From a virus: a DNA stretch of 13,756 bases. The stretch's first letter is position 1; every line of letters begins with the position of its first letter. Made by a program: the position numbers and the translations under genes. Location: the UHGV virus genome UHGV-0099327, one strand, 5' to 3'. Shown piece by piece: positions 1 to 13,756 of this stretch. Under the pieces are notes generated by a model. The model was not told the origin of the DNA, did not search any database, and saw only the letters and a list, made by a program, of their open reading frames with translations.

Positions 1-21
1 CTCCGGATGAATATGATGATC

Positions 22-321
22 TCATATCAGGAACTTGTTCGCACCTTCCCTAATTTCTTTTTCTTCGCTGATTGAACTGATATCAGTAAAGTCACCAGCG
101 GCAATAAAATTCTTACCTTGATATTGCAAGTCGTAATAAGCATCAGTTAACAACAGTTCTGCGCCGTTATGCATCTTAATCTGAACAAGATGAAACAACG
201 CGCCAACACTGAACAACTGACCAGTAGTCAGTTCAGTATAAGCAGTGCCGTTAAAATCGTTATACGCTTCGATGAAGTCGGGGTCTTTTCTCAGTCTGTT
301 AAATTGGTCTTTTACTGACAT
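22..321 (-). CDS. hypothetical protein (99 aa)
   Basis: ORF in the supplied track. ATG at 321..319 is preceded by an AGAGGTGG Shine-Dalgarno-like sequence. Its start overlaps the stop of the upstream 191-aa ORF (TAATG), suggesting translational coupling. No family recognised. Confidence 0.45.
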   Translation of the reverse strand: MSVKDQFNRLRKDPDFIEAYNDFNGTAYTELTTGQLFSVGALFHLVQIKMHNGAELLLTDAYYDLQYQGKNFIAAGDFTDISSISEEKEIREGANKFLI

Positions 322-896
322 TACACCACCTCTGTTGCAGTGAGTTTAATATTTGAAATTGATGCTAAGTCTAACGGGATAGTATCGTTCGTTAGGATGA
401 ATCGTCCTTTTGTTCCTCTGTAACTGACAGTTTCACCAGCTTGAACGTTCTGCAACAGATTCGGAAATAGTTTCATCTCTCCACCTGCTTTGACATCCTC
501 CGTCACGGTGTACAGCTTGGAGTGATTCTGAAACTGAACAAGTGCTCCCGCTTCTAAAGTATCTGCAAAGCTGTTCAGAGTGACCTTACGCGCTCCTTTG
601 TTAGCTGTAACAGATGCCTGGATAAGTCCCTGAGCCGAGCCTTTATAGTCAGTCAAGTAGCTTAACGGAAAGTCAAACGGTTGACCTTGTTGATGCATCG
701 CGATAAAGCGTTGAACGTGTCTTGTGTCCTGCGACATATAATTCACAGTGAAATTCAATTCGAAATATTGAACGCCTGTATAACGTTTCTGAAAACGTCC
801 TGATACTGCTCTGTTAGAGAAAAACGGAGCATTTGATTTAAGCTGAACATCGGTCAGCCTAACGTCTGTGTCTAATAGATTCATAAGTCCTCTCAT
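321..896 (-). CDS. hypothetical protein (191 aa); true start may be the second Met at 884
   Basis: Long ORF transcribed divergently from the endolysin gene, with only 33 bp between the two starts. The second ATG (884..882) has a GAGGA motif a few nt upstream. No family recognised. Confidence 0.45.
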   Translation of the reverse strand: MRGLMNLLDTDVRLTDVQLKSNAPFFSNRAVSGRFQKRYTGVQYFELNFTVNYMSQDTRHVQRFIAMHQQGQPFDFPLSYLTDYKGSAQGLIQASVTANKGARKVTLNSFADTLEAGALVQFQNHSKLYTVTEDVKAGGEMKLFPNLLQNVQAGETVSYRGTKGRFILTNDTIPLDLASISNIKLTATEVV

Positions 897-929
897 AAAT
901 AAGATTTTAACTATATTTATGAGGCCAAT

Positions 930-1415
930 ATGGAACTAAACGCAATGCTTCGTTATGACGAAGGCGAAAAACTCACGATGTATAAAGACACAGAAGGATA
1001 TTTCACAATCGGTGTCGGACACTTGATTACAAAAAATCCATCAAGAGACTACGCTTTGAAAGAACTTGATAAAGCTGTTGGTCATCCTTGTTATGGATAT
1101 ATCACAGCGAAAAAATCTGATCAGTTACTGAATATTGATGTTAACTCAACTCTGCGTCAGCTTAGTAAAACAGAACTGCATCCAGCTTATATCAGAATCG
1201 ATACAGCCAGGCGTTCAGCGTTAATCAATATGTGTTTTCAACTCGGCGTTTCTGGCGTATGTCAGTTCAAGAAATTCTTGGGATACATAGCTGTTGGAGA
1301 TTATCAAAATGCGGCTGATGAAGCTTTAGACTCAAGATGGGCACGTCAGACTCCTAATAGAGCAAAACGTGTAACTGATGTTATTAGATATGGCGATTTC
1401 AGAAGTTATAATTAA
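930..1415 (+). CDS. endolysin, T4 lysozyme (gene e)-type muramidase, GH24
   Basis: 161-aa product aligns by eye along its length with T4 lysozyme (MELNAMLRYDEGEKLTMYKDTEGYFTIGVGHL versus T4 [32 protein letters not shown]). The catalytic Glu11, Asp20 and Thr26 equivalents are conserved, as are the ALINMCFQLG and RWARQTPNRAKRV blocks. GAGG sits 5 nt before the ATG. Confidence 0.9.
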   Translation: MELNAMLRYDEGEKLTMYKDTEGYFTIGVGHLITKNPSRDYALKELDKAVGHPCYGYITAKKSDQLLNIDVNSTLRQLSKTELHPAYIRIDTARRSALINMCFQLGVSGVCQFKKFLGYIAVGDYQNAADEALDSRWARQTPNRAKRVTDVIRYGDFRSYN

Positions 1416-1767
1416 AAATTTATATTATCTAATTTGAACAGCATCAAGTTGATGAATCGGACTAAGCAGATATGTAATTAACACCATCAGCTTAGTCTAC
1501 ATATAGCTTGTTATAATTTTTTACGACTCAACGAAGTCTTGTTAGGATAATGTAAACAAATCCGTTTTTTAGATGTTAGTAATATTAGCAATGTTCATCT
1601 TAGAATGTGATATCGAAGGAAACTCGAAAATGATAATAGCTTTACACTATTGAGAAAATTTGGTTGAGGCTTCAAAATAGAGCATTCATACGTGATCAAT
1701 AGCCAGACTAAGCAAGCAACAGCTAACCCCCGTAACGTACTGATTAAATTGATAATTGAAGGTGCAT

Positions 1768-2055
1768 ATGTTAAAAGTTACTGGTCTTGATAAGCTTCAG
1801 AAAGAACTCAAGGATGCAAAGCGTATACTGAGTGAGCTGGATGGCGAGCTAGGAGTCGTAAAGTTTAACCCTAACGACCCTGCTAGCATCGAGTCGGCAA
1901 TTCAAACAGTTAATCACATGATTGATGAACGCATTGGCGGATGTTCAACCAACTCCATAGTCGGCTCGCTTGCGCAGCAGATGAAGGAAACATACAGAGA
2001 AGGCATTCTTAAAAAAGCTGCCGAAGCCAGATTGACTTCAAGTGAGGATGAGTAA
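1768..2055 (+). CDS. hypothetical small protein (95 aa from ATG 1768), first gene of a two-gene operon with the TIR-like protein
   Basis: ORF with a GAAGGTG SD-like motif 3 nt before ATG 1768 (spacing short; the track starts at TTG 1756). Its stop overlaps the next gene's start (TAATG at 2053..2057). No family recognised. Confidence 0.5.
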   Translation: MLKVTGLDKLQKELKDAKRILSELDGELGVVKFNPNDPASIESAIQTVNHMIDERIGGCSTNSIVGSLAQQMKETYREGILKKAAEARLTSSEDE

Positions 2056-2951
2056 TGGCTCAAGATATTTTTTCTGAAATGAACAATGCTGTTCTGGATT
2101 TACAGGCTTCACAATACCAGACCTTTGAACGTCCACTCAAAAAGCTTGCTCAGCTTCTAAAACATTCCGATCTTGAATCATACAATGCAGACCTGACTGA
2201 AGGACTCAATCTTACAGAGTTTCTCGCAGAAAGTGAGAAGACTGGAGGAAGTATGGCTGGGAGTGCCCAGCTTGTCTGGCCAGATGATGCAAGAAAAACA
2301 CTAGGCCTTACATTACTTTTGATTTTTAAGTTAGCAGAAGATCCTAATTATGCAATCAACTTTGGACATCATTTTTTCTATTCCGGAAGTAAAGTTATAG
2401 CAGGCATTCATTCGATTACAGGACAACTTATCATTCCTTTCGTTAGAGATTACAAAAATTATGTTCAGTCTAAGGGAAGCACAGAAACTATGTTGAAGCC
2501 GCAGTTTTCGAACAAAGTTTTCATTGTTCATGGTCATGATGATGGCGCCCGTGAAACAGTCGCAAGGTTTCTTGAACGTATAGGTTTAGAAGCAATCATA
2601 TTACATGAGCAAGCTAATCAGGGACGAACTGTCATTGAGAAAGTTATAGCAAATAGTGATGTTGGATTTGCTGTTGTATTGCTAACACCAGATGATGAAG
2701 GTTGTGCTAAAGGAGGAATACCAGAACCAAGGGCAAGGCAGAATGTAATGCTAGAATTAGGATATTTTATCGGGCGTTTAGGCAGAGAGAAAGTATGTGC
2801 ACTAAAACGCGGCTCACTAGATATTCCAAGTGATTTTGCTGGGGTTGTTTGGGAAAATATGGATAGCAGTGGAGGCTGGAAGCAAGCACTCGCACGAGAA
2901 CTTGAAGCTGCTGGTCACAATATTGATTGGAATAAAGCAATGCGGAGTTGA
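2055..2951 (+). CDS. TIR-like domain protein (Cap12/PycTIR-type nucleotide-binding domain at C-terminus, uncharacterised N-terminal ~150 aa); candidate anti-phage effector
   Basis: 298-aa ORF with a GAGGA SD. The C-terminal half carries the motif series KVFIVHGHDDG (nt 2517..2546), AVVLLTPDDEG, RARQNVMLELGYFIGRLGREKVCAL and IPSDFAGVV. From memory this matches the bacterial TIR-like family found in CBASS Cap12 and Pycsar effectors. The N-terminal domain is not recognised. Confidence 0.6.
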   Translation: MAQDIFSEMNNAVLDLQASQYQTFERPLKKLAQLLKHSDLESYNADLTEGLNLTEFLAESEKTGGSMAGSAQLVWPDDARKTLGLTLLLIFKLAEDPNYAINFGHHFFYSGSKVIAGIHSITGQLIIPFVRDYKNYVQSKGSTETMLKPQFSNKVFIVHGHDDGARETVARFLERIGLEAIILHEQANQGRTVIEKVIANSDVGFAVVLLTPDDEGCAKGGIPEPRARQNVMLELGYFIGRLGREKVCALKRGSLDIPSDFAGVVWENMDSSGGWKQALARELEAAGHNIDWNKAMRS

Positions 2952-3002
2952 TTTTATATAGCTCTATTTTTAGCGATACTGGCGTTTCATCGACAATTAA
3001 AA

Positions 3003-3037
3003 ATTTGGCTGCTGATTAGCCTAAAACGCAGCCAAAT
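3003..3037. repeat. 10-bp inverted repeat (ATTTGGCTGC ... GCAGCCAAAT) with 15-nt spacer in the terS-upstream intergenic region; possible protein-binding site or cos/pac-associated element
   Basis: Arms at 3003..3012 and 3028..3037 are exact reverse complements. The repeat lies in the 337-bp non-coding stretch upstream of the Nu1-like gene, where lambda-like phages place cos. Confidence 0.35.
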
Positions 3038-3134
3038 ATAAATCATTAATGATATTGCTTAAATAAGTTTTAACGACTCATCTTCTGCCCCCCCTCTAAC
3101 AAAAAATAATAGTTACTCTGGGACTTCTGAAACA

Positions 3135-3163
3135 CCGAGATGTTTCGAGCGCTCGGCTTTTTT
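3135..3163 (+). terminator. putative intrinsic terminator downstream of the TIR-like operon
   Basis: CCGAG ... CTCGG stem (3135..3139 and 3152..3156) contains the palindrome CGAGCGCTCG and is followed by TTTTTT (3158..3163). Confidence 0.35.
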
Positions 3164-3288
3164 CTGCTGTGTGAAAATTCCAAATCAATTCAGTTCATCA
3201 TCGATAGACAGGACTGATTCCGGATGATTTTTCCGTTCAAGATAAATACAGTAATAAACCCTTGGGCCACTTGTGTAAGGAGAATAAA

Positions 3289-3810
3289 ATGGCACGTAAA
3301 ATTTACGTCAGTATGACTGATATGGCAAAACGTTATGGTTATACCCTTAACGCTATTAAATCATGGAGAGCAGAAGGACTTCCTTATTCAGATAATCCAG
3401 CAGGAATACCAGAAAACGAAGGCACTTTATGGATCGTTCAGAACAAAATTAATCCGATGCGCAATATGTCTGTTCGTGATGAATTCGAGAAAGAAAAACT
3501 TCGTGAACAGGTGGCGAAGGCTGACTTAGCAACTTATGCAGCGCAAGAAAAATCAGGTGAATTAATCCCTGTTGAGTTGGTGCAAGCTCAATTGAATCAG
3601 TTCTGTCAGTCTCTGAAAGATTCCATCAGGCTGATTCCGTCAAAACACGGTATCGAAATCATGGAGTCTGCTAATGATATCCAGGAGCTGAAAGAAAAAC
3701 TCAAAGAGATTTTCAACAGAACATTGAATGAACTTGGTGAGTCGTTCGAACAAGACTTCGAACACGTTGACAAACCAGAAGAGAAAGAAGATAGTGAAAT
3801 TGAACTTTAA
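3289..3810 (+). CDS. terS: terminase small subunit, lambda Nu1-like (N-terminal winged HTH)
   Basis: ATG at 3289 with an AAGGAG SD 6 nt upstream. The N-terminus (SMTDMAKRYGYTLNAIKSWRAEGLP) resembles the lambda Nu1 HTH (KKQLADIFGASIRTIQNWQEQGMP), followed by a similar EKEKLREQV acidic/coiled segment. An intrinsic terminator follows immediately. Confidence 0.6.
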   Translation: MARKIYVSMTDMAKRYGYTLNAIKSWRAEGLPYSDNPAGIPENEGTLWIVQNKINPMRNMSVRDEFEKEKLREQVAKADLATYAAQEKSGELIPVELVQAQLNQFCQSLKDSIRLIPSKHGIEIMESANDIQELKEKLKEIFNRTLNELGESFEQDFEHVDKPEEKEDSEIEL

Positions 3811-3835
3811 GGGAGTTTGCACTCCCTTTTTAATT
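3809..3835. terminator. intrinsic terminator (stem AAGGGAGT / ACTCCCTT, loop TTGC, T-run), probably bidirectional
   Basis: Perfect 8-bp stem begins at the terS stop codon and is followed by TTTTT on the + strand. On the minus strand the same hairpin follows the 70-aa gene and is flanked by A/T-rich sequence. Confidence 0.65.
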
Positions 3836-3916
3836 TCAAACAGTTACCATGTTTATGTATTTCATTTTTAAAATCGAATGAAGGAATTTAAAGCGATGGT
3901 GGGACCAAAATGTTTT

Positions 3917-4129
3917 TCATCGTGTTGCTCCTTTAAAGATTTGTTTCTGACGATTAATGAACATTCTTTCCTGCTTGAAATAGCCTGCTTCAATTTCGAC
4001 TGACTCTGTTAGATGTTGCTTAGGGTATTTTTCGCGACTAGCGCAATGTACATTTTTTCGTTGTAACATAAAACTGATTTTCACATAATCGCGCTTGCAA
4101 ATTACACACTTGTAATCATGGCCTGTCAT
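3917..4129 (-). CDS. hypothetical small Cys/His-containing protein (70 aa) immediately downstream of the retron RT
   Basis: ATG at 4129..4127 is preceded by a strong AAAGGAG SD at 6-nt spacing. The product contains CVIC ... HC, a possible metal-binding motif. It sits 187 bp downstream of the RT gene on the same strand and is followed by the hairpin at 3809..3835. Confidence 0.5.
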   Translation of the reverse strand: MTGHDYKCVICKRDYVKISFMLQRKNVHCASREKYPKQHLTESVEIEAGYFKQERMFINRQKQIFKGATR

Positions 4130-4316
4130 ATATACTCCTTTGTAAAACTATATTTATAGCCTCCATAACATTACAAAAGAATGATATTTTTAATTTGAGG
4201 TGTCGTCCAAATATGATTATATTCCAAAGTGACATTAATGAATATTGTCCCGACTACGGAATAGGGATTAAAATAAACCGTAACCGGGAAATATATTTAT
4301 TATCCATTTTTAACCA

Positions 4317-6086
4317 TCATGGATAGTACAAATTTTTAAAGTGATTATTAATATCAACCATAGCATCAAGAATTGGTTTGAACAATGAAAAATCTATAGT
4401 CTGTCTATTTTCTCTGATAATATTGTTGGCAAACCTGTCTTTTCCAAAAGTAGTAGTGCTATCATGATTATTACTTTTATCAAAGGATTTACCGTTAATT
4501 GTCTTTGTCAGAACTTCATCTTTGAAAAAGTCTTCCATGCACGATTGTTTATCACCAGCCAATAGTGGAGTTAACAATACGTAGAGGTTATTCTCTAAAT
4601 GTAAAAATTTATGTTTTCTTACGTCCTCTGATTTTCTAGGCAGGTGAGAATATTCTTTGATTATATTATTAATAAAATCAGATGGCCCAGTGTCATTATC
4701 CAAAACAATTATTACTGGATTTTTAGGCGGTTGTCTTTCAAATTTCTTGCATTGTTCTCTATGCCTTCTAAAGAATCTTACATAGTCAGCAGCCCCACCG
4801 TAGAGGTCTAAAAAATATTCCTTTTTTGCGTTTGTTTTGAATAACGTAATATTTAAAATTCTATTCTTTGTTCTATCGTCAACTCTAACCAGAGCAGGAT
4901 AACTTAAATACAAAGAATCAATTGCACATTTCAAATAAATTGGATCTGTTTTACCTTCTGTCAAAACTGTAGGCTTTATATTCCCATAAAAATACTTATA
5001 ATGAAGAAAGTTACTGAATGCTGTCTCTCTTGAATTCAATTTGAGAGTAAAATTAATTCCAGTTTTCTTTAGCACATATTTTTCTGGGAGTGTATGTTTT
5101 TTAGCGTTAATGTTATTATACTTATCAAGCATATCAATATAAACGAAGCGGCCTTCAAGTTCATTTAGAGTACCTTTTCGCGGTTTTCCACTAATATCCA
5201 AAAGGGTAAAATCCCCTTCTTTATAAAGTGCATGCGCCATAGCTCTGGTTTTTTTAATATAATCTTTATTGACATTTATTTTTTTGTTTACGGTTAAACC
5301 TGTTACTTCCTGCCTTGATGTATGCCGCAATATTCTGGTCTTATTATTATTAATTTTAAATCCAGCTTTTTCAATTTCATTAACTAACAATGGTCCTAAC
5401 TCGTTAGAATTCTCATTTATAACAATTGAGTCAGGAAACTGATTTTTGTTAGTTGAGAATGTTATATCATCTGCATATCGACTATAACTGCATCCATTAG
5501 AAAGTGCCAACTTTGACAATCTAATATCTAAAATATTACATATAAGATTGCTTATTACAGGAGAGCAAGGACTTCCTTGCGGAAGTTTTCCATCATAGCA
5601 AGCTATCTGCGCAATTATAGTTGCTATTGATGGGTGCAAATTAAAATATTGATTCGCGATAAAATAACCACGGACCCTACCGAAATTAAATGTAGGGAAA
5701 AAATCCTCAAGATCAATATTTAAAACATTGGTTTTATTTCTATGTCTTTCTGCATTTGTTATTATTGTTTTATTTTTCTCAAATCCATGAGATAAGCTAG
5801 GGGTGATATTATTTGTTTTCCATATTTCGCTCTGACAAACATACAATAAATCTGATAAACGCCTTTGTATGTCTTTTAGTTTTTCAGTAGGCGCAAATAT
5901 CTCTCTGTCACCTCCAGACTTCTTTTTTATAATAAATCTTTCATATTGATGCTCAGGTCGTATTCTGTACAGGACATTAGTAAGAAAAGAAACTTTAATT
6001 TGAAGTAAGCGTGCAAACTCAAATTTGGTCTTGCATGACTTGAGTCTTTCTAAGTAGGAGGGAGTGAACATAATAGTAAATTCCAT
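4317..6086 (-). CDS. retron reverse transcriptase fused to a C-terminal TOPRIM (OLD-nuclease-like) domain, Ec67-type
   Basis: 589-aa ORF carrying RT motifs: KKSGGDREI (aa 55..63), NIDLEDFF (motif A, Asp125), QGSPCSPVISN, and YADD (aa 204..207, nt 5477..5466). The C-terminal region has TOPRIM-like TEGKTD and VLDNDTG motifs. Size and motif order match my recollection of the Ec67 RT (about 586 aa). A retron-like ncRNA lies directly upstream. Confidence 0.9.
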   Translation of the reverse strand: MEFTIMFTPSYLERLKSCKTKFEFARLLQIKVSFLTNVLYRIRPEHQYERFIIKKKSGGDREIFAPTEKLKDIQRRLSDLLYVCQSEIWKTNNITPSLSHGFEKNKTIITNAERHRNKTNVLNIDLEDFFPTFNFGRVRGYFIANQYFNLHPSIATIIAQIACYDGKLPQGSPCSPVISNLICNILDIRLSKLALSNGCSYSRYADDITFSTNKNQFPDSIVINENSNELGPLLVNEIEKAGFKINNNKTRILRHTSRQEVTGLTVNKKINVNKDYIKKTRAMAHALYKEGDFTLLDISGKPRKGTLNELEGRFVYIDMLDKYNNINAKKHTLPEKYVLKKTGINFTLKLNSRETAFSNFLHYKYFYGNIKPTVLTEGKTDPIYLKCAIDSLYLSYPALVRVDDRTKNRILNITLFKTNAKKEYFLDLYGGAADYVRFFRRHREQCKKFERQPPKNPVIIVLDNDTGPSDFINNIIKEYSHLPRKSEDVRKHKFLHLENNLYVLLTPLLAGDKQSCMEDFFKDEVLTKTINGKSFDKSNNHDSTTTFGKDRFANNIIRENRQTIDFSLFKPILDAMVDINNHFKNLYYP

Positions 6087-6102
6087 TATTAATTATGTTA
6101 TT

Positions 6103-6231
6103 GCACATGCAGGCACTCTTACGCATTTCAAAGTGACGCCCAAGAAGATCCGACGTCCGTCAGAGGCGAATACTGCCGACCTTTTAATCACTGATTGCGA
6201 TACCACAACCAACAAATCTACCTGCATGTGC
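6103..6231 (-). ncRNA. msr-msd: retron msr-msd non-coding RNA (template for msDNA), bounded by 11-bp inverted repeats a1/a2
   Basis: Exact inverted repeat GCACATGCAGG (6103..6113) and CCTGCATGTGC (6221..6231) flanks about 107 nt, immediately 5' of the RT start on the minus strand. This is the canonical a1-msr-msd-a2-RT layout. The 5' part of the minus-strand segment (AGATTTGTTGGTTGTGGTATCGCAATCAGTG) resembles my unverified recollection of the Ec67 msr. The only ORF here (6064..6249) is implausible. Exact ends are uncertain. Confidence 0.6.
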
Positions 6232-6516
6232 CTTGCTAATTTATCATAGTTAACAATCAAAACAAGCACTTTTGAAAATGGTTGTATCTTATTGATTAAC
6301 TAATCATGGTCAAAGCCGAACATTCCTCGTGAAGATTGTTAGAATTTGAGATCTTTACGAGCACTTAACAGACTGTCAGATTCAGTCATGGAGCAAGTTG
6401 AATGCAATGTTATCATGTATCACTTTTTCTTTTTCGTCGTTAAGATGGTTCATAAAACTTACCATTAAGTCGATTGATAACTAGTAATTACATCTGTAGG
6501 TTCTCTTGATGATTTG

Positions 6517-7257
6517 TCAGAGGGCATTTGAGCTAAATAAAGTTGATTCGACGAGTTCAATTGCTTCATCTTCGATAGTTGATTTGTCCATTGTTTTGGT
6601 CGGCTCAGAAATATCAATTTTCACAATTACAATCTCGTCATCAAAAGATAGTTTTTCACCCCTTCTTTCTTTACGTAAAACGCTGTTCTCTTTGCTGAGT
6701 TCAGCGTTTTTCCTTTCTAACTCTGCGACTCTTTTCATCAAATCTTCCATTTTGGAATTCACAACATCTAGTTTCTGCTCAGTCGGAAATTCAATACTTT
6801 CGATGATTTCAATAAATTCACCAGTATACATCTGAACAAACTGCTCGGTGTCTTTGATCTTCTGCATTCTTAGATCTGAACAGAAAGCTTTCCACGAGTT
6901 CTTTTTACCGTTAATTTCACAAGCAACGATAACAGCATTATCGGTTGTATAAGCAACGATTGCAGGCAGATTATTAACTTCGGTCGTACCGATTTCGAAG
7001 CTATGCATATTTTTTACAGTCACAGCATTTTCAATCTTCTGTAACATCTTAGCTCGAACATTACGATGAATATCTATAGCTTTAACAAGAGCTTTCAGGC
7101 TGTTTTTGTTATTGGTCATTCTATTAACTTTGATAATATTTCTGTTCAGGCTTGCTTTAACTGTTCTGTCTAGATTTTCGAAGACTGCAAATTTGAAATT
7201 CAATTTATTTGCCTTTATTGATTGGTTGAGTTCTGATATTACGTTTTTTGCAAGCAT
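6517..7257 (-). CDS. hypothetical protein (246 aa) with C-terminal coiled-coil-like segment
   Basis: Long ORF with phage-like codon usage. No SD before ATG 7257. The 5' 53 nt overlap the upstream HTH ORF in a different frame. C-terminal region (KMEDLMKRVAELERKNAELSKENSVLRKERR) is heptad-like. Family not recognised. Confidence 0.5.
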   Translation of the reverse strand: MLAKNVISELNQSIKANKLNFKFAVFENLDRTVKASLNRNIIKVNRMTNNKNSLKALVKAIDIHRNVRAKMLQKIENAVTVKNMHSFEIGTTEVNNLPAIVAYTTDNAVIVACEINGKKNSWKAFCSDLRMQKIKDTEQFVQMYTGEFIEIIESIEFPTEQKLDVVNSKMEDLMKRVAELERKNAELSKENSVLRKERRGEKLSFDDEIVIVKIDISEPTKTMDKSTIEDEAIELVESTLFSSNAL

Positions 7258-7363
7258 TATACATCGTTGCTTTATTCATTTGTTTAGATTCTGCAATTTG
7301 CTGAAATGTCTCACCAGAGTCTAAGCGAGATTCAATTTCGAATTTGTTAGGTATAAATTTCAT
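7205..7363 (-). CDS. small HTH-like protein (52 aa from Met at 7363); possibly the N-terminal part of a frameshifted larger gene
   Basis: ORF track entry 7205..7399. I prefer the internal ATG at 7363 because the terminator hairpin at 7394..7413 overlaps the longer version. The segment SGETFQQIAESKQMNKATMYNACKK looks like a helix-turn-helix. No convincing SD. Confidence 0.3.
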   Translation of the reverse strand: MKFIPNKFEIESRLDSGETFQQIAESKQMNKATMYNACKKRNIRTQPINKGK

Positions 7364-7393
7364 GGGGTTGCCTTTTTTATTGAATTGAAAAAT

Positions 7394-7419
7394 AAGCACT
7401 CCGAAGAGTGCTTTAAACT
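7394..7419 (-). terminator. intrinsic terminator on minus strand (8-bp stem, UUCG tetraloop, U-tract)
   Basis: The + strand AAGCACTC-CGAA-GAGTGCTT at 7394..7413 reads on the minus strand as AAGCACUC-UUCG-GAGUGCUU followed by AUUUUUCAAUUC. Confidence 0.45.
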
Positions 7420-7619
7420 TAAGGAATTTTTAAATGAACTAAGCTAATTGCTTATATCTTATTTTATGACGGATAAAGTCAGTAGTAAACAAACGAGAGA
7501 AAATAACGAGGAAGAAGAAACTCTCTGTGTTCATACTAATATTTATATAGTTCACCGAAAGTGTAAACAAAGTCCGAAAAATAATTTAGTGAAAAGCAGG
7601 TGCATTGATGCACATCAAA

Positions 7620-7643
7620 ACGCATCGATAACGCATCGATGCG
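7620..7643. repeat. tandem direct repeat ACGCATCGATA/ACGCATCGATG, the second copy lying within a perfect 12-bp palindrome CGCATCGATGCG; adjacent TGCAT-tg-ATGCA inverted repeat at 7601..7612
   Basis: Read directly from the sequence: two 11-nt copies at 7620..7630 and 7631..7641, and the palindrome at 7632..7643. Operator-like architecture in a stretch with no convincing ORF. Confidence 0.4.
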
Positions 7644-7762
7644 ACTCGGAGAAGTGCATGGACCCTAGAAAAAATCGCCCTATAAGAACAATTGGATAAA
7701 GATGAACTGGAAGGATATAGAAGCAGTACAAAACCTGGAAAACATAGCGAAGCGAGCAGATT

Positions 7763-7888
7763 GCGCGAAGCGCGGGCGAAGCCCTAATTGATAAACATTA
7801 GCGCGAAGCGCGACAGATAACACTATCGAACTTGATTACTAGCTACTGATTAGATGTTTCTAGATAAAGATTATTAGCGCTTCGCGCG
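7763..7888. repeat. cluster of GC-rich mini-hairpin repeats (GCGC-GAA-GCGC, GGGC-GAA-GCCC, GCGC-TTC-GCGC) embedded in AT-rich non-coding DNA
   Basis: GCGCGAAGCGCG at 7763..7774 and 7801..7812, GGGCGAAGCCC at 7774..7784, and the inverted version GCGCTTCGCGCG at 7877..7888. Copies two and three share the 5' flank ATTAGCGC. These are GCGAAGC-type hairpins, known to be unusually stable as DNA. Confidence 0.5.
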
Positions 7889-8350
7889 TTCGCTACGCTC
7901 ACAATATTATTTTTCAGATCTGGATAATAATGATTACTGGATAACTGCATTATACTGTTCGTCTGACAATCAATAAACATAACGATCGATAATTAATTGA
8001 AATAACGTTAATGAGTTCTCCTTCGCTATCGCTACGTCGAACGGGCAAGCCCTATCTTTGATGATAGTAATGATTGACTGCTACATCATCCCTCCTCGCT
8101 TCTCCCTGCTTCTACTGACCTAATGATACTCCAAGTCAATTCCCTGTTATCAAGTTCACCTGATGCTTCCTGCTTCGTTATCGACCTTATTGCTTTTGAC
8201 TCTACGCTTTCAGCTTCGCAGGAAGTACGCCCTGCTGTTTGCAGATCGTTCTAAAGAACTGAGTAATCAAGTTCTCAACTATTTGATTCCTTGCGCCCCA
8301 AAGATGCCTCCAGTATCTGTGGTTTACAATCTACTCATTTGAAATTCAAT

Positions 8351-8378
8351 AAAAAAGGGAGCACTAAGCTCCCTTTTG
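8351..8378. terminator. intrinsic terminator hairpin (GGGAGC-ACTAA-GCTCCC) flanked by A-run and T-run, probably bidirectional
   Basis: 6-bp GC-rich stem at 8357..8362 and 8368..8373, with AAAAAA upstream and TTTT downstream. It lies immediately 3' of the 59-aa minus-strand gene, whose stop is at 8379..8381. Confidence 0.55.
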
Positions 8379-8558
8379 TCATTTCAGATCAAGCACTAAT
8401 GCTTGTTCAAGTTTTTTCTCAAGCAGAGTGTTTAATCCACTTTCGAAAAATTCAATCGCTTGAACGTCTGAGTCTGTTTTTAAGCGAACAGCGGCATCGT
8501 CAACTGTTAACTCTTCGGTCTTAACATCACCGTTTTTATAAACCACATTAGCAATCAT
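8379..8558 (-). CDS. hypothetical small protein (59 aa), not in the supplied ORF track
   Basis: My own translation of the minus strand: AAAGGAGAAAGC-ATG (ATG at 8558..8556) opens a 59-codon frame, MIANVVYKNGDVKTEELTVDDAAVRLKTDSDVQAIEFFESGLNTLLEKKLEQALVLDLK, ending TGA at 8381..8379 and followed directly by the terminator. Strong SD with ideal spacing. Confidence 0.5.
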   Translation of the reverse strand: MIANVVYKNGDVKTEELTVDDAAVRLKTDSDVQAIEFFESGLNTLLEKKLEQALVLDLK

Positions 8559-8796
8559 GCTTTCTCCTTTGTTGCTAAAAAATAATAACCGAATGATATC
8601 ACTTGTTCAATTTTTCTTTCAATCAAATAAGTATCCGATGAATAGTCGGCTCTCTAAACTAGCAGGTATGAAATAGTTCCTTAATTCTGAACTTCCTCAC
8701 TTTGCTTCCTATTTAATATTGCAATTTTAAATCTAGTGTAATTAATTTAGCTACAAACTTGCATTTATTATACATTTAAAAAATCGCCTCCATTCG

Positions 8797-9231
8797 TTAG
8801 GCATTCTCAGTTTCACTCATTTCTCCTTTAGTGCTATTCACACAGCGAAGAAACTGATCCCTCTGATACGCGGCAGTTTTGTCTGACATCTGTTTTTTGA
8901 ATAACTCAAAATCCCCCTCTGTACGTTTAAAAATAATCATGCTAATCGCAGATGGTTTTTTATTAGCCGATTTGCTAGCAAGAAGTTTTTCGATGTTATC
9001 GAATCCGAAAGCCTGATTCACGATTCGTTGTGCTTCAACAGCATCGACAACTTCAACCGTATTTTCAGCTTTAACTTCTTCAACAACTGTATATTCCTCG
9101 ATGTTAGCTTTAACACGACGAACAACAGAACGAGGAACATCGTATTTTTCAGCAAGCTTACTCTCTGACATATCAGTACCAGCGTTTAATTCAGAAGCAA
9201 TTCGGTTTTCAACAGTCAGTTCAGTTTTCAT
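8797..9231 (-). CDS. hypothetical HTH-containing protein (144 aa from Met at 9231), divergent from terL
   Basis: The internal ATG at 9231..9229 is preceded by AGGAGA, whereas the track start at 9288 has no SD. The N-terminal segment SESKLAEKYDVPRSVVRRV looks like a helix-turn-helix. C-terminal part not recognised. Confidence 0.55.
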   Translation of the reverse strand: MKTELTVENRIASELNAGTDMSESKLAEKYDVPRSVVRRVKANIEEYTVVEEVKAENTVEVVDAVEAQRIVNQAFGFDNIEKLLASKSANKKPSAISMIIFKRTEGDFELFKKQMSDKTAAYQRDQFLRCVNSTKGEMSETENA

Positions 9232-9376
9232 TGTCGTTCTCCTGTGTTTTGTTGGAACAGACTTTAACAGGCGGATATCCAGGTGCAAGAACTCTTAGAA
9301 ATAATTTTATGGAGGTTTTCATAAATACAGACAGAGAAATGAAATCCATTTTGGGTTCATCCACTTAGGGCTGATT

Positions 9377-11260
9377 ATGAAAAACTCAAATAAACTGAAA
9401 AGTATCTTACAGAATGCAAAGCGCTTTTTAATGCCACCTCCTGACTACACTCCGTCCGAGTGGGTCGAACAGTACCTGAAATTCCCTGATGGTCCTTATA
9501 CAGGGCAGCCGATGAAACTGTTTGAGTTTCAGAAAGGCATGATTGACGTCATTAAAGAACGTAAGAAGAAAATCGTCTTCGAGACTTCTGCCCAGATTGG
9601 CAAGACAACCATCTTGAACGGAATTCTGTTCTATAAGTCTGCTACTGATCCCGGTAACGCTGGTGTCTTGCAGTCAACCGGTAAAGAGACGACTCAATGG
9701 CTATCAGGCAAGATTCGCCCAATGATTGACGAATCGGAAGAAATGCAACGAATCGTCACCGACAAGAACGACAGAAACGCAGTGAATAACACCAGTCAAA
9801 TTCAGCTACGTGCTGGAGGCTTTTGGTATTTCATGTCGCTCAATAGCCCTTCTCACTTACGCGGTAAAACTCTTCCGCTGATGTTGCTTGATGAAGTTGA
9901 CGCAGTTGAAACAGACACAGAAGAAGGCAACCCGATTATCATCGCGGAACAACGTGCTACGACGTTCGGTGAAGACGCTCGTGTTTTCATTAGCTCGACG
10001 CCTACAAGTAAATACGGTGCTATCCACACGCAGTATGAAGCATCCGACAAGCGCAAGTATCATGTTCCCTGTCCTACATGTGGTCATAAGCACGAACTGA
10101 CGTGGGAGAATATCAAATTCGACTGGGTAAAAATCGATGGTAAATCATTACCTGATCCTAACTCTGCCAGAATTGAATGTCCTGAATGTCATCACGCTTT
10201 CTCTGAAGGCGACCGAGCACGAGCAATTAAACAAGGTGAATGGATTATTCATCAACCTGAAAGTCGAATTGCTGGATTCCACGTAAGTCGTTTATACAGC
10301 CCAATGAGTTCTATCAAATCAGTTGTTGAAGACTATAAGCAAGCATGGCAAACGTTCAGCTTGTCAACGTTTTATAACACTGTTCTTGGTCTACCGTTTG
10401 ATGATTTAAACGAAGACATTGAGGTTAGTAAATTAGAAACACTCAAGACGAATATCGGCATCAGCAATATACCAGAAGACACGTTGTTTTTAACCGCTGG
10501 GGTTGACCAACAGCAAGACCGTTTAGAAGTAACCTTGATGGGTCACAACGAACGAACCGTTTATATTCTTGCACATCGTAGCTTTATGACAATGAACGCT
10601 GAGGTTATCGATTCCCCTGCTTATAAAGAACTTCTTGCATACGTTAAAGCACCGTTCAGAACAGCTTTGGGAAGAAAGGTTCCTTTAGCGTGGGTGAACG
10701 TCGATAGCTCAAACGGTCGAGCAACTAAAACAATCTATCGTTTCTGCTCTCAGTGGACAAACCTGAAAGCAATTAAAGGTGCCAGCTCTGTTGATGCCCC
10801 TTATGTTCCAACGAAAATCACGAAAACCGGTGGTTATGAACTTTATATGATTGGTGTAAACCAAGGAAAAAACTTAGTTCGTGAACTGCTAAACAGAAGC
10901 GTGAAATCTGGAAATACACCAGTCAGAGTCGAAATCTCTGATGATGTTCCAGATGATTACTGCGAACAGCTTATGTCCGAAGAATTAAAACGCTCTGGTA
11001 ATACTGTTAGATGGGTTATTAAACAAGGCGGTGTTCGTAACGAAGGTCTTGACTGCTTTAACTACGGTTATTGCGCGCGTCTGCAAGTTCTAGAGAAAAT
11101 CAAATTTCACGAGTGGAGGAAACTCGCTGCTAAACCTGATATTGAAATGCCAGAAGAACAAAACGAAACAAATTCTCCTATTATTCAAACTCCTGAACCT
11201 CGTCGAAACATTATCAAACGAAACAGACCAGTTAATAAGCCTCGTGGTTTCGGATTATAA
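9377..11260 (+). CDS. terL: terminase large subunit, lambda GpA family
   Basis: 627-aa product with Walker A-like ETSAQIGKTT and Walker B-like LMLLDEVDAV. Blocks resemble lambda gpA: HVPCPTCGHKHEL ... CPECHH (Cys-rich), FHVSRLYSP, LTAGVDQQQDRLEVTLMG, IKGASS, GLDCFNYGYCA. Length is close to lambda gpA (about 641 aa). Confidence 0.9.
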   Translation: MKNSNKLKSILQNAKRFLMPPPDYTPSEWVEQYLKFPDGPYTGQPMKLFEFQKGMIDVIKERKKKIVFETSAQIGKTTILNGILFYKSATDPGNAGVLQSTGKETTQWLSGKIRPMIDESEEMQRIVTDKNDRNAVNNTSQIQLRAGGFWYFMSLNSPSHLRGKTLPLMLLDEVDAVETDTEEGNPIIIAEQRATTFGEDARVFISSTPTSKYGAIHTQYEASDKRKYHVPCPTCGHKHELTWENIKFDWVKIDGKSLPDPNSARIECPECHHAFSEGDRARAIKQGEWIIHQPESRIAGFHVSRLYSPMSSIKSVVEDYKQAWQTFSLSTFYNTVLGLPFDDLNEDIEVSKLETLKTNIGISNIPEDTLFLTAGVDQQQDRLEVTLMGHNERTVYILAHRSFMTMNAEVIDSPAYKELLAYVKAPFRTALGRKVPLAWVNVDSSNGRATKTIYRFCSQWTNLKAIKGASSVDAPYVPTKITKTGGYELYMIGVNQGKNLVRELLNRSVKSGNTPVRVEISDDVPDDYCEQLMSEELKRSGNTVRWVIKQGGVRNEGLDCFNYGYCARLQVLEKIKFHEWRKLAAKPDIEMPEEQNETNSPIIQTPEPRRNIIKRNRPVNKPRGFGL

Positions 11261-13390: not shown

Positions 13391-13756
13391 ATGCTAAAAC
13401 TAAAACGCGATTTCGAAGCCCAAGAAATTAAAATTACTGATGATAGTTATGAAATTGCGTTCTCAAGTGAAACTCCTGTTGAACGTCAAATTCTCGATAG
13501 TTACGGTCAACCAATAACAGTTAACGAAATTCTTTTGCATGACGGCCCTCAAAATGCTGACCTCGAGCGAATTAATAACGGTGCTGCTCTGTTGTTTAAC
13601 CATAATTTCGACAATCATCTAGGCGTTGTAATTCCTGGGTCTGTAAGAATCGATAATGACCGTAAAGGTCGCGCTGTTGTTAAATTCAGTAAAGTTGGTC
13701 AATTAGCTAAGGAAGGTGCGAATAAGCGGGGAAATTCTTCTCGGCTGACTCAGTCA
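13391..13756 (+). CDS. prohead protease (HK97-type), 5' partial; runs off the window end
   Basis: ATG at 13391 is preceded by AAGAGGAA. The N-terminal segment EIAFSSETPVERQILDSYGQPITVNEILLHDGP ... ALLFNHNFDNHLGVV ... DRKGRAVVKFSK resembles HK97-family prohead proteases. It is in the expected position after the portal gene. Confidence 0.55.
   Translation, partial: MLKLKRDFEAQEIKITDDSYEIAFSSETPVERQILDSYGQPITVNEILLHDGPQNADLERINNGAALLFNHNFDNHLGVVIPGSVRIDNDRKGRAVVKFSKVGQLAKEGANKRGNSSRLTQS

What the first reader, a model, noticed from the sequence alone, without database searches (positions are those of the whole stretch)
4317..6231. Ec67-like retron (msr-msd plus RT-TOPRIM) carried inside a phage structural region
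The RT has all canonical motifs including YADD (nt 5477..5466) and a C-terminal TOPRIM-like domain, the architecture of retron Ec67. Directly upstream on the same strand is a non-coding segment bounded by an exact 11-bp inverted repeat, matching the a1/a2 arrangement of retron ncRNAs. Retrons are anti-phage systems, so a phage carrying one next to its terminase suggests superinfection exclusion or inter-phage conflict.
Basis: partly seen in the sequence, partly recalled or inferred. Interest (0 to 1): 0.7.

Follow-up and report, generated by a model that had tools for sequence, protein, structure and literature searches.

The report
Ec67-family retron in a decaying prophage
This is an intact copy of a well-understood one-gene bacterial anti-phage system, a type I-C "Ec67-family" retron, riding as cargo between the two DNA-packaging genes of a decaying E. 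coli prophage; the call is correct, but the finding is ordinary.

Summary
ORF 4317..6086(-) is a retron type I-C RT-Toprim fusion. It matches the PADLOC I-C model (E=7e-216), NCBIfam retron_Ec67_fus (709 bits, cutoff 450) and the solved Eco2/Ec67 structure (51% identity, predicted fold TM 0.77). YADD, EGxxD and DxD are all intact.

Directly upstream on the same strand, 6103..6231 is an msr-msd ncRNA. Its a1/a2 stem is really 13 bp, and the branching G is predicted at 6218. A covariance model built only from relatives hits the window at that one site (116 bits). The fold covaries across 57 distinct I-C loci.

The roughly 1.96-kb promoter-ncRNA-RT module sits in a variable slot between a terS-like gene and terL. 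The host element is an IS-riddled prophage-like element, seen at ybiT-ldtB in E. coli MS 115-1. Close relatives of the retron occupy the known cos-proximal hotspot of P2-like prophages, as Ec67 itself does.

RefSeq already labels this protein as Ec67 family, and the family mechanism was published in 2025-26: msDNA cages the Toprim nuclease, phage nucleases trigger it, and it cleaves tRNA. This is therefore a new, uncharacterised member of a known kind (predicted msDNA about 64 nt). Interest is low.

The parts
6238..6265 (-). Putative promoter of the retron transcript. -35 TTGTTT at 6265..6260, a 16-nt spacer, and a TG-extended -10 (TGATAAATT) with the hexamer at 6243..6238. This places +1 about 7 nt downstream, at the 5' end of the a2 arm.
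   Evidence: Read directly from the sequence. The same TTGTyT-16 nt-TGnTAnnnT arrangement is kept at the same distance in L087 and L088. It lies inside the DNA shared between unrelated genomic contexts, where homology ends at about 6250-6280. The generic promoter scan did not report it. This is an inference.
6103..6231 (-). msr-msd non-coding RNA, 129 nt from the a2 arm to the a1 arm.
   Evidence: Covariance model R1, built without the window, scores 116 bits, E=2e-30, and this is its only real hit in the window. The MFE is -52 kcal/mol, z=-4.6. It aligns with the Ec67 ncRNA and 7 other relatives. Rfam has no matching family.
6219..6231 (-). a2, the 5' arm of the terminal inverted repeat: GCACATGCAGGUA.
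   Evidence: Compensatory changes occur at 6 of its 13 pairs among 9 close relatives. In the 57-locus set, 13 of the 17 pairs of the model's outer helix, which contains this stem, show changes on both sides.
6218..6218 (-). Predicted branching guanosine, whose 2'-OH primes msDNA synthesis. It is equivalent to G15 of Ec67.
   Evidence: It aligns with Ec67 G15 (numbering from PMC12916289). The A-G-A immediately after the a2 stem is invariant in 58 of 58 I-C loci. The branch chemistry was not tested.
6191..6212 (-). msr hairpin: 9-bp stem with a UAUC loop.
   Evidence: z=-3.9. 8 of its 9 pairs show changes on both sides across I-C loci.
6117..6180 (-). Predicted msd template, 64 nt. Predicted msDNA: 5'-TCTTACGCATTTCAAAGTGACGCCCAAGAAGATCCGACGTCCGTCAGAGGCGAATACTGCCGAC-3'.
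   Evidence: Homology mapping onto the Ec67 start (A118) and stop (G52:dC67) positions (PMC12916289). This is an inference, and the true ends may differ by a few nt.
6103..6115 (-). a1, the 3' arm of the terminal inverted repeat: UGCCUGCAUGUGC.
4317..6086 (-). RT-Toprim fusion gene, retron type I-C. 589 aa from the first ATG; more likely 584 aa from the ATG at 6071. Stop codon at 4317-4319.
   Evidence: PADLOC RT-Toprim_I-C E=7e-216, residues 10-585. NCBIfam NF038237, 708.7 bits against a cutoff of 450. PDB Ec67 chains 9lm3/9i2f, E=5.5e-189. AF2 model with pLDDT 84.8, matching Eco2 at TM 0.77.
5466..5477 (-). YADD, the RT catalytic motif (aa 204-207).
   Evidence: It aligns with Ec67 YADD 199-202 and is invariant in 26 family members.
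4320..5069 (-). C-terminal Toprim nuclease domain, about aa 340-589. It contains EGKTD (nt 4958..4944, motif IV EGxxD), DND (nt 4700..4692, motif V DxD), E518 (4535..4533) and K549 (4442..4440).
   Evidence: The domain alone matches Ec67 chain residues 329-582, E=7e-68. Ec67 catalytic residues E374, D378, D460, D462 and E515 are conserved here; S513 is Cys here, with Ser one residue earlier. These columns are invariant in the family alignment. The motif definitions come from PMC7736814. There is no Pfam Toprim hit.
4248..4289 (-). 12-bp stem-loop 28 nt after the RT stop codon. It may be a transcript-end structure. It has no U-tract and lies outside the module shared with other contexts.
   Evidence: -16.7 kcal/mol, z=-2.1, which is weak. 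Homology with other retron loci ends at 4297-4337. Its assignment is uncertain.

Best explanation
The locus is an intact, probably functional type I-C (Ec67/Eco2-family) retron, a single-gene abortive-infection-type anti-phage system. It is carried as accessory cargo in a variable slot between the terS-like and terL genes of a prophage-like element.

Steps shown here:
- The sequence encodes a full-length RT-Toprim fusion with all catalytic residues.
- A cognate msr-msd RNA with a covarying fold lies directly upstream on the same strand.
- Promoter, ncRNA and RT form a discrete module of about 1.96 kb that also occurs in unrelated contexts.

Steps inferred from published work on Eco2 (PMC12916289, PMC12405507):
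1. One transcript supplies both the ncRNA and the RT mRNA.
2. The RT uses the 2'-OH of the G after the a1/a2 stem (6218) to copy the msd into a branched msDNA of about 64 nt.
3. RT-Toprim and msDNA assemble into an oligomer, a trimer in Eco2, in which the msDNA cages and inactivates the Toprim site.
4. DNA endonucleases of an infecting phage (DenB of T-even phages, A1 of T5-like phages) nick the msDNA.
5. [quoted passage not shown] Translation stops and the infection aborts.

The beneficiary is the lysogen. While the prophage was still viable, the prophage also benefited through exclusion of competing phages.
For: Protein identity. These cover full-length matches to I-C-specific profiles and to the solved Eco2 structure, and conservation of YADD, EGxxD, DxD, E518 and K549.

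ncRNA. The 13-bp a1/a2 stem carries compensatory changes. An independent covariance model hits the window at one site only. The same RNA lies 0-70 nt upstream of the RT in 58 of 60 other I-C loci. 29 of 34 pairs covary, and 90.5% of cells are paired against 34-49% in slid controls. The AGA branch motif is invariant.

Integrity: RT and ncRNA are 100% identical in five independent records, with only two SNPs in 2.7 kb, both outside them.

Module boundaries: homology with loci from five other contexts ends at about 4297-4337 and about 6250-6280.

Prophage context: a terS-like gene (phrog_57, E=3e-21), a gpA-type terL, a lambda-family portal, a distal tail protein and a lysozyme. In MS 115-1 there is also a serine recombinase, and the element lies between ybiT and ldtB.

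Variable slot: three different contents occur at this position in sister prophages.

Mechanism and precedent.
Against: Nothing was tested experimentally: msDNA, oligomeric state, trigger and RNA target all rest on a homologue that is only 51% identical. The Eco2 trimer-contact loop (residues 325-347) is poorly conserved, 9 of 22 identical, and is the lowest-confidence part of the model. The msd differs completely from that of Ec67, and the predicted msDNA folds weakly (-4.2 kcal/mol), so formation of an Eco2-like three-way junction is not assured. The residue equivalent to metal-B ligand S513 is Cys. The promoter is weak by consensus and was missed by the scan. Pfam Toprim models do not match.
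Confidence: 0.85

Rival explanations
1. The retron is real and active, but it differs functionally from Eco2. Because its msd, its msDNA and its trimer-contact loop are divergent, it may assemble differently. It may also sense other phage factors, or cut other RNAs, than Eco2 does.
For: Identity to Ec67 is only 51%, and 9 of 22 in the trimer loop. The msd is unrelated in sequence, the predicted msDNA is 64 nt, and it has only a weak 5-bp hairpin. The Eco2 authors note that Eco2 must respond to triggers other than DenB and A1, and that the I-C classification is unsettled.
Against: All catalytic and most structural positions are conserved. The predicted fold superposes on Eco2 over its full length, TM 0.77. 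The msr, which is the RT-recognition part, is nearly identical to that of Ec67.
Confidence: 0.2
2. The locus is a silent or decaying relic, carried along in a dead prophage and no longer contributing to defence.
For: Every copy of the host element seen is hit by IS elements. MS 115-1 has IS3 in terL. Strain 2021CK-01361 has an IS5-family element with a deletion at terL. The window itself ends in IS5-family termini inside tail-hub and prohead-protease genes. The promoter has only a 3/6 match at -35.
Against: The ORF is intact and every invariant family residue is kept. The ncRNA stem is intact. RT and ncRNA are 100% identical in five records, while the flanking packaging genes differ by up to 15%. 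A conserved TG-extended -10 is present.
Confidence: 0.07
3. The RT belongs to another class of prokaryotic RT (group II intron, DGR, Abi/DRT, or retron types XI/XII), and the inverted repeat is an unrelated terminator or a chance palindrome.
For: The RT domain alone also scores well against the RT-TIR (XII) and RT-protease (XI) models, E about 1e-100. Rfam finds no retron RNA here.
Against: The XI and XII matches stop at residue 292-329, whereas the I-C models cover residues 10-585. The group II intron model scores 48 bits against a cutoff of 300, and Drt2 scores 40 against 390. The C-terminal domain matches only the Ec67 Toprim domain. The ncRNA is supported by the covariance model and by covariation.
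Confidence: 0.01

Closest known systems
Retron-Eco2 (Ec67), type I-C1. Solved structures 9LM3, 9I2F, 9I2G, 9S1F.
   Same: Same architecture: promoter, msr-msd, then one RT-Toprim gene. Full-length homology, E=5.5e-189. YADD, EGxxD, DxD and E515 are conserved. The msr is nearly identical, including the hairpin and the AGA branch motif. Both have a 13-bp a1/a2 stem. Both are carried by a prophage next to its packaging genes.
   Different: Protein identity is only 51%. The msd sequence is unrelated, and the predicted msDNA is 64 nt rather than 67. The branch context is TAGA rather than CAGA. S513 is replaced by Cys, and the trimer loop is divergent. The host phage is a gpA/lambda-portal type element with a serine recombinase, not a P2/186-like phage.
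Ec67-family retrons in P2-like prophages of Serratia and other Enterobacterales (P0002 and P0003; loci L087, L088, L097).
   Same: These are the closest relatives found: 76-77% protein identity and about 77% nucleotide identity across the whole promoter-ncRNA-RT module. The a1/a2 arms and the msr are identical.
   Different: They sit in the classical hotspot between replication gene gpA and portal gpQ of P2-like phages. The interior of the msd differs.
Common E. coli Ec67-family retron next to dhaR (WP_000476153.1, locus L002), present in 523 of 5426 complete genomes.
   Same: 71% protein identity, the same a1/a2 arms and the same msr.
   Different: It lies in a chromosomal island beside an ABC-three-component system, not in a prophage packaging region. 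The variant in this window occurs in only 2 of 5426 complete genomes.
Retron types XI (RT-protease) and XII (RT-TIR).
   Same: The RT domains are closely related, PADLOC E about 1e-100, and all are single-protein RT-effector fusions.
   Different: The effector domain here is Toprim, not TIR or protease. Matches to those models end near residue 300-330.
cos-proximal defence hotspots of P2-like phages and P4-like satellites (Rousset et al. 2022, PMC9122126; Dodd & Egan 1996, cited in PMC6868368).
   Same: Both are variable cargo slots adjacent to phage packaging functions that hold retrons among other systems. Relatives of this retron occupy exactly those hotspots.
   Different: Here the slot lies between a terS-like gene and terL of an unrelated phage type. 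No cos site was identified. Only three alternative contents were seen.

Membership tests
Retron (general) | Retron-clade reverse transcriptase with the complete RT motifs, including YADD. | tested here: met
   RVT_1 matches profile positions 1-205 of 205. All of the best PADLOC and NCBIfam hits are retron RTs. YADD is at aa 204-207.
Retron (general) | msr-msd ncRNA directly upstream on the same strand, closed by the a1/a2 inverted repeats. | tested here: met
   A 13-bp stem formed by 6231..6219 and 6115..6103, ending 16-31 nt before the start codon. An independent covariance model gives E=2e-30. Covariation is documented.
Retron (general) | A conserved priming guanosine immediately 3' of the a2 arm. 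| tested here: met
   G6218 aligns with Ec67 G15. The AGA motif is invariant in 58 of 58 I-C loci.
Retron (general) | Production of 2'-5' branched msDNA. | not testable with these tools
   This needs expression and nucleic-acid analysis. Only the template (6180..6117) can be predicted, by homology.
Retron type I-C (Ec67 family) | RT fused at its C-terminus to a Toprim domain. | tested here: met
   The C-terminal 259 aa match residues 329-582 of the solved Ec67 chain, E=7e-68. That region is described as a Toprim/OLD-like fold (PMC12405507). The full-length model superposes on Eco2 at TM 0.77. Generic Pfam Toprim models do not hit.
Retron type I-C (Ec67 family) | Toprim motif IV EGxxD and motif V DxD. 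DxD marks I-C1 and I-C3; DxE marks I-C2. | tested here: met
   EGKTD is at aa 377-381 and DND at aa 463-465. The definitions come from PMC7736814. I-C1 was not separated from I-C3.
Retron type I-C (Ec67 family) | Curated family score: NCBIfam NF038237 retron_Ec67_fus. | tested here: met
   708.7 bits against a cutoff of 450, covering profile positions 1-572 of 572.
Retron type I-C (Ec67 family) | Single protein-coding gene with no conserved accessory effector gene. | tested here: met
   Homology with loci in five other contexts stops at the RT stop codon and about 20-50 nt upstream of the ncRNA. Both neighbours have homologues in retron-less sister prophages: the 246-aa ORF in E-93 and orf70 in PSS-15.
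Retron type I-C (Ec67 family) | msDNA-caged trimer, activation by a phage nuclease, and tRNA/RNA cleavage. | not testable with these tools
   Known only for Eco2. The trimer-loop residues are poorly conserved here.
Retron-Eco2 (Ec67) itself | The same RT and the same 67-nt msDNA. | tested here: not met
   51% protein identity. The msd sequence is unrelated, and the predicted msDNA is 64 nt.
Group II intron RT / DRT / Abi RTs | Score above the curated family cutoff. | tested here: not met
   TIGR04416 scores 48 bits against 300. Drt2 scores 40 bits against 390.
Prophage-borne defence hotspot | The same backbone position carries different cargo in related elements. | tested here: met
   The slot between the terS-like gene and the 246-aa (ZapB-like) gene holds the retron plus orf70 here, three unrelated plus-strand ORFs in E-93-type elements, and two small ORFs in PSS-15. 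Only three variants were sampled.

The most novel reading that the evidence does not exclude
The terS-terL interval of this gpA-terminase, serine-recombinase prophage family may be a previously undescribed defence hotspot, analogous to the cos-proximal hotspots of P2 and P4. If so, the compact promoter-msr-msd-RT module of about 1.96 kb is exchanged as a discrete cassette between packaging-proximal hotspots of unrelated phages (P2-like, P4-like and this lineage). That would point to a shared but unknown insertion or recombination route for retrons, which encode no mobility function. The divergent msd and trimer loop might also give this retron a trigger specificity different from that of Eco2.
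Probability: 0.3. Interest if true: 0.4.

Novelty: new member of a known kind. Interest (0 to 1): 0.2.

Why it matters
Little is at stake scientifically. The family, its architecture, its mechanism and its association with prophages are all published, and RefSeq already names this protein as an Ec67-family retron.

The locus does offer three modest things:
- A natural, 51%-diverged I-C homologue with a different msd. It could be used to test which features of the Eco2 model are general: the three-way junction, the trimer loop, and the DenB/A1 triggers.
- A clean example of the retron module as a discrete cassette of about 2 kb, with an empty-site comparison in sister prophages.
- An example of defence cargo kept intact while its prophage is dismantled by IS elements.

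Tried and rejected
- Rfam. At gathering thresholds over the whole window it found nothing. At E<=10 on 6000-6450 it gave only a spurious snoRNA hit. Rfam 15 returns no family for this Ec67-type msr-msd, so I built a covariance model from relatives instead.
- Pfam. No Toprim/OLD model hits either the full protein or the C-terminal 259 aa, even at E<=10. The domain assignment rests on the Ec67 structure and on I-C-specific profiles.
- Phage database. Megablast of the retron and of the terL-portal region against the GenBank phage collection found no match. The host element is known only as a prophage and from IMG/VR contigs.
- Genome scan. I recovered close relatives through the look-up of encoding contigs instead.
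- 246-aa upstream ORF as a possible retron accessory gene. Rejected: it has a 55%-identical homologue at the same place in a retron-less prophage.
- 70-aa downstream ORF as a possible accessory gene. Rejected: it is absent from other retron contexts, and a 43%-identical zinc-ribbon homologue occupies the same position in retron-less PSS-15.
- Literature searches for the accessions, the strain plus 'retron', and the sequence strings found nothing.
- 'K562'. The catalytic lysine named in PMC12405507 does not map to a Lys in the Ec67 chain numbering. The lysine that is invariant in the family alignment is Ec67 K546, which is K549 here.
Full report
**Observation**

The window has a 589-aa ORF at 4317..6086 on the minus strand. 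Pfam RVT_1 covers its N-terminal half end to end, E=4e-23. An exact 11-nt inverted repeat lies at 6103-6113 and 6221-6231. So the thing described is really there, at the stated coordinates.

**The protein**

The best PADLOC models are the four RT-Toprim_I-C models, which cover residues about 10-585 (E=7e-216 to 8e-177). The models for the related fusion types XI (RT-protease) and XII (RT-TIR) match only the RT part, up to residue 292-329. NCBIfam NF038237 'retron_Ec67_fus' scores 708.7 bits against a curated cutoff of 450. The group II intron and Drt2 models fall far below their cutoffs.

The protein aligns over residues 9-585 with the solved Retron-Eco2 (Ec67) chains 9LM3 and 9I2F, E=5.5e-189, at 51% identity. 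Generic Pfam Toprim profiles do not detect the C-terminal domain, even at E<=10. That domain alone does match Ec67 residues 329-582, E=7e-68. An AlphaFold2 model (pLDDT 84.8) superposes on the Eco2 cryo-EM chains over its full length, TM 0.77.

Mutagenesis of Eco2 identified several essential residues (PMC12405507 and PMC12916289). Their equivalents are conserved here: YADD, E377, D381, D463, D465 and E518, which correspond to Ec67 E374, D378, D460, D462 and E515. S513 is Cys here, with a Ser one residue earlier. In a 26-member family alignment, YADD, E-G-K-T-D, D-N-D, E and a GK lysine are invariant. The motifs EGxxD and DxD are those that Mestre et al. use to define I-C1/I-C3 (PMC7736814).

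The likely start is the second ATG, at 6071. That gives 584 aa, as in RefSeq WP_000494974.1 and as in relatives.

**The RNA**

On the minus strand, the segment 6231..6103 reads a2 (GCACAUGCAGGUA), G, AUUUG, a 9-bp hairpin, the msd region, then a1 (UGCCUGCAUGUGC). The terminal stem is 13 bp, made of 11 exact pairs plus one G.U and one A-U pair. The RNA folds at -52 kcal/mol, z=-4.6.

It aligns with the Ec67 ncRNA and with seven other relatives. Their msr parts are nearly identical and their msd interiors differ. Among these nine sequences, 9 of 26 predicted pairs show compensatory double changes, six of them in the a1/a2 stem.

Rfam has no matching family. I therefore built a covariance model from the eight relatives, without the window. 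It hits the window only at 6101-6234(-), at 116 bits and E=2e-30. The next hit is the antisense of the same site, at 17 bits.

The same model finds an RNA just upstream of the RT gene, on the same strand, in 58 of 60 further I-C loci from many phyla. On that alignment, 90.5% of cells are paired, against 34-49% when the partners are slid. 29 of 34 pairs change on both sides. That alignment is fitted to the model, so the numbers lean towards the structure.

The A-G-A that follows the a2 stem is invariant in 58 of 58 loci. The G, at window position 6218, aligns with the Ec67 branching G15. Mapping the Ec67 template limits (A118 down to G52; PMC12916289) onto the window gives a template at 6180..6117 and a predicted msDNA of 64 nt. 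This is an inference.

A promoter conserved in position may lie at 6265..6238: TTGTTT, 16 nt, then a TG-extended TAAATT. It is also present in L087 and L088, but the generic scan did not call it.

**Context**

The window is 99% identical, over 51-10346, to a region of E. coli MS 115-1. There, an element of about 34 kb lies between ybiT and ldtB. It carries a serine recombinase, tail, lysis, packaging and head genes.

Only 2 of 5426 complete E. coli genomes carry this retron variant. 523 carry a variant about 73% identical at the DNA level, next to dhaR. 14 carry classical Ec67.

In the window, the ORF at 3262-3810(+) matches phage small-terminase families (phrog_57, E=3e-21) and is followed by a terminator-like hairpin. 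terL, a gpA-type terminase with ATPase and nuclease domains, is at 9377-11260. A head-tail joining protein and a lambda-family portal follow it. The retron therefore lies between terS and terL, transcribed in the opposite direction.

Sister prophages show that this position is variable. E-93-type elements carry three unrelated ORFs there. PSS-15 carries two small ORFs there.

Neither neighbouring gene is a retron accessory. The 246-aa ORF upstream of the retron (6517-7257) has a 55%-identical homologue at the same place in a retron-less sister prophage. The 70-aa zinc-ribbon ORF downstream (3917-4129) has a 43%-identical one. Both are backbone genes.

Homology with retron loci from five other contexts is confined to about 4297/4337 through about 6250/6280. 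The transferable unit is therefore promoter plus ncRNA plus RT-Toprim, about 1.96 kb. It is 100% identical in RT and ncRNA across five independent records.

**Precedent**

Classical Ec67 in strain 2012C-4502 lies between the replication and DinI-like genes and the portal/terminase genes of a P2-like prophage. The closest relatives of the present RT (76-77% identity) and several 53-55% relatives lie at the same gpA-gpQ position. One lies in a P4-like element.

This is the long-known cos-proximal site (Dodd & Egan 1996, cited in PMC6868368). It is also the P2/P4 defence hotspot described by Rousset et al. (PMC9122126). [quoted passage not shown]

**Mechanism**

By homology with Eco2, I infer the following sequence. 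The transcript provides both the ncRNA and the mRNA. The RT primes on G6218 and makes a branched msDNA of about 64 nt. RT-Toprim and msDNA assemble into an oligomer in which the msDNA cages the Toprim nuclease. Phage DNA endonucleases (DenB, A1) nick the msDNA. The freed Toprim domain cuts tRNA acceptor stems, which shuts down translation.

What is shown here is only the presence and integrity of every sequence element this mechanism needs. Three things leave room for differences in assembly or trigger: the trimer loop is poorly conserved (9 of 22 identical), the msd is different and the predicted msDNA weakly structured, and S513 is replaced by Cys.

**State of the host element**

Every copy seen is damaged by IS elements. 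MS 115-1 has IS3 in terL. Strain 2021CK-01361 has an IS5-family element with a deletion at terL. The window itself begins and ends in IS5-family termini, which interrupt the tail-hub and prohead-protease genes. The retron and the neighbouring TIR gene stay intact. This fits retention of the defence cargo by the host, but it does not prove it.

**Verdict**

The locus is a new, uncharacterised member of a well-characterised family, in a setting that is already typical for that family. Interest is low (0.2). The most novel reading that the evidence does not exclude is that the terS-terL slot is an undescribed hotspot, and that the 2-kb retron module moves between packaging-proximal hotspots of unrelated phages.

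Noticed in passing
window 1756-2951 (+): A two-gene pair just upstream of the terS-like gene. The first gene is a 99-aa YuaX-like ORF (PF27363 in the Logan gene call). It overlaps by one base a 298-aa protein with a CAP12/Pycsar-type TIR domain (Pfam E=5e-38), which matches the PADLOC candidate system PDC-S35 (E=1e-70). It is probably a second defence gene of the prophage. It is also present in retron-less sister prophages, and IS2 disrupts it in PSS-15.
   Followed up: partly
window 7400-8378: A stretch of about 1 kb between terS and terL with no ORF and no annotation in any genome. It is single-copy and is conserved at about 76% nucleotide identity, with many indels, in sister prophages. No reading frame is conserved. 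A 21-nt inverted repeat brackets it (7371-7391 and 8338-8358, 19 of 21 complementary). Its GC content (0.42) is higher than that of its flanks. No Rfam family matches. It could hold the packaging (cos/pac) signals or a long ncRNA.
   Followed up: partly
window 1-49 and 13711-13756: Both ends of the window are IS5-family termini (...GTTCGCACCTTCC | CTAA and CTAA | GGAAGGTGCGAATAAG...). The start of the terminus (GGAAGGTGCGAATAAG) matches the ISEc68 boundary in L005. In the source genome, two IS copies in the same orientation interrupt the baseplate-hub (DUF2163) gene and the prohead-protease gene, and the contig was probably broken at these repeats. These termini also explain the thousands of spurious E. 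coli hits to the full window.
   Followed up: partly
window 3262-3810 versus 9377-11260: The terS-like and terL genes lie 5.6 kb apart. The interval is filled with genes on the opposite strand and with non-coding DNA: orf70, the retron, a ZapB-like 246-aa ORF, small ORFs and a GntR-like HTH protein. This split is conserved in sister prophages.
   Followed up: partly
window 10346 onward, compared with L001: The element is mosaic. The window is 99.2% identical to MS 115-1 up to the IS3 insertion point in terL (10346), but only 84.6% identical from there through the portal gene. terL is intact in the window (627 aa) but is split by IS3 in MS 115-1, and it is truncated beside an IS5-family element in 2021CK-01361.
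   Followed up: no
L004 5990-7930 (NZ_CP027440.1, classical Ec67 locus): The RefSeq CDS for the Ec67 RT is annotated with an over-extended start. It runs across the whole msr-msd ncRNA (L004 6001-6132), giving 646 aa instead of 586.
   Followed up: no
L003 8837-9451 (E. coli E-93 sister prophage): A NUMOD3-domain gene, typical of homing endonucleases, occupies a 0.9-kb insertion where the window has only 152 nt (8192-8344). This is a second variable point in the terS-terL interval.
   Followed up: no
L004 and L093, about 85-100 nt upstream of their ncRNAs: Both loci carry the motif GGCGTGGCGGGGATA just upstream of the retron. From memory it resembles the 186/P2/P4 cos core, which would fit the published placement of Ec67 next to cos. 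No such motif was seen upstream of the retron in the window.
   Followed up: no
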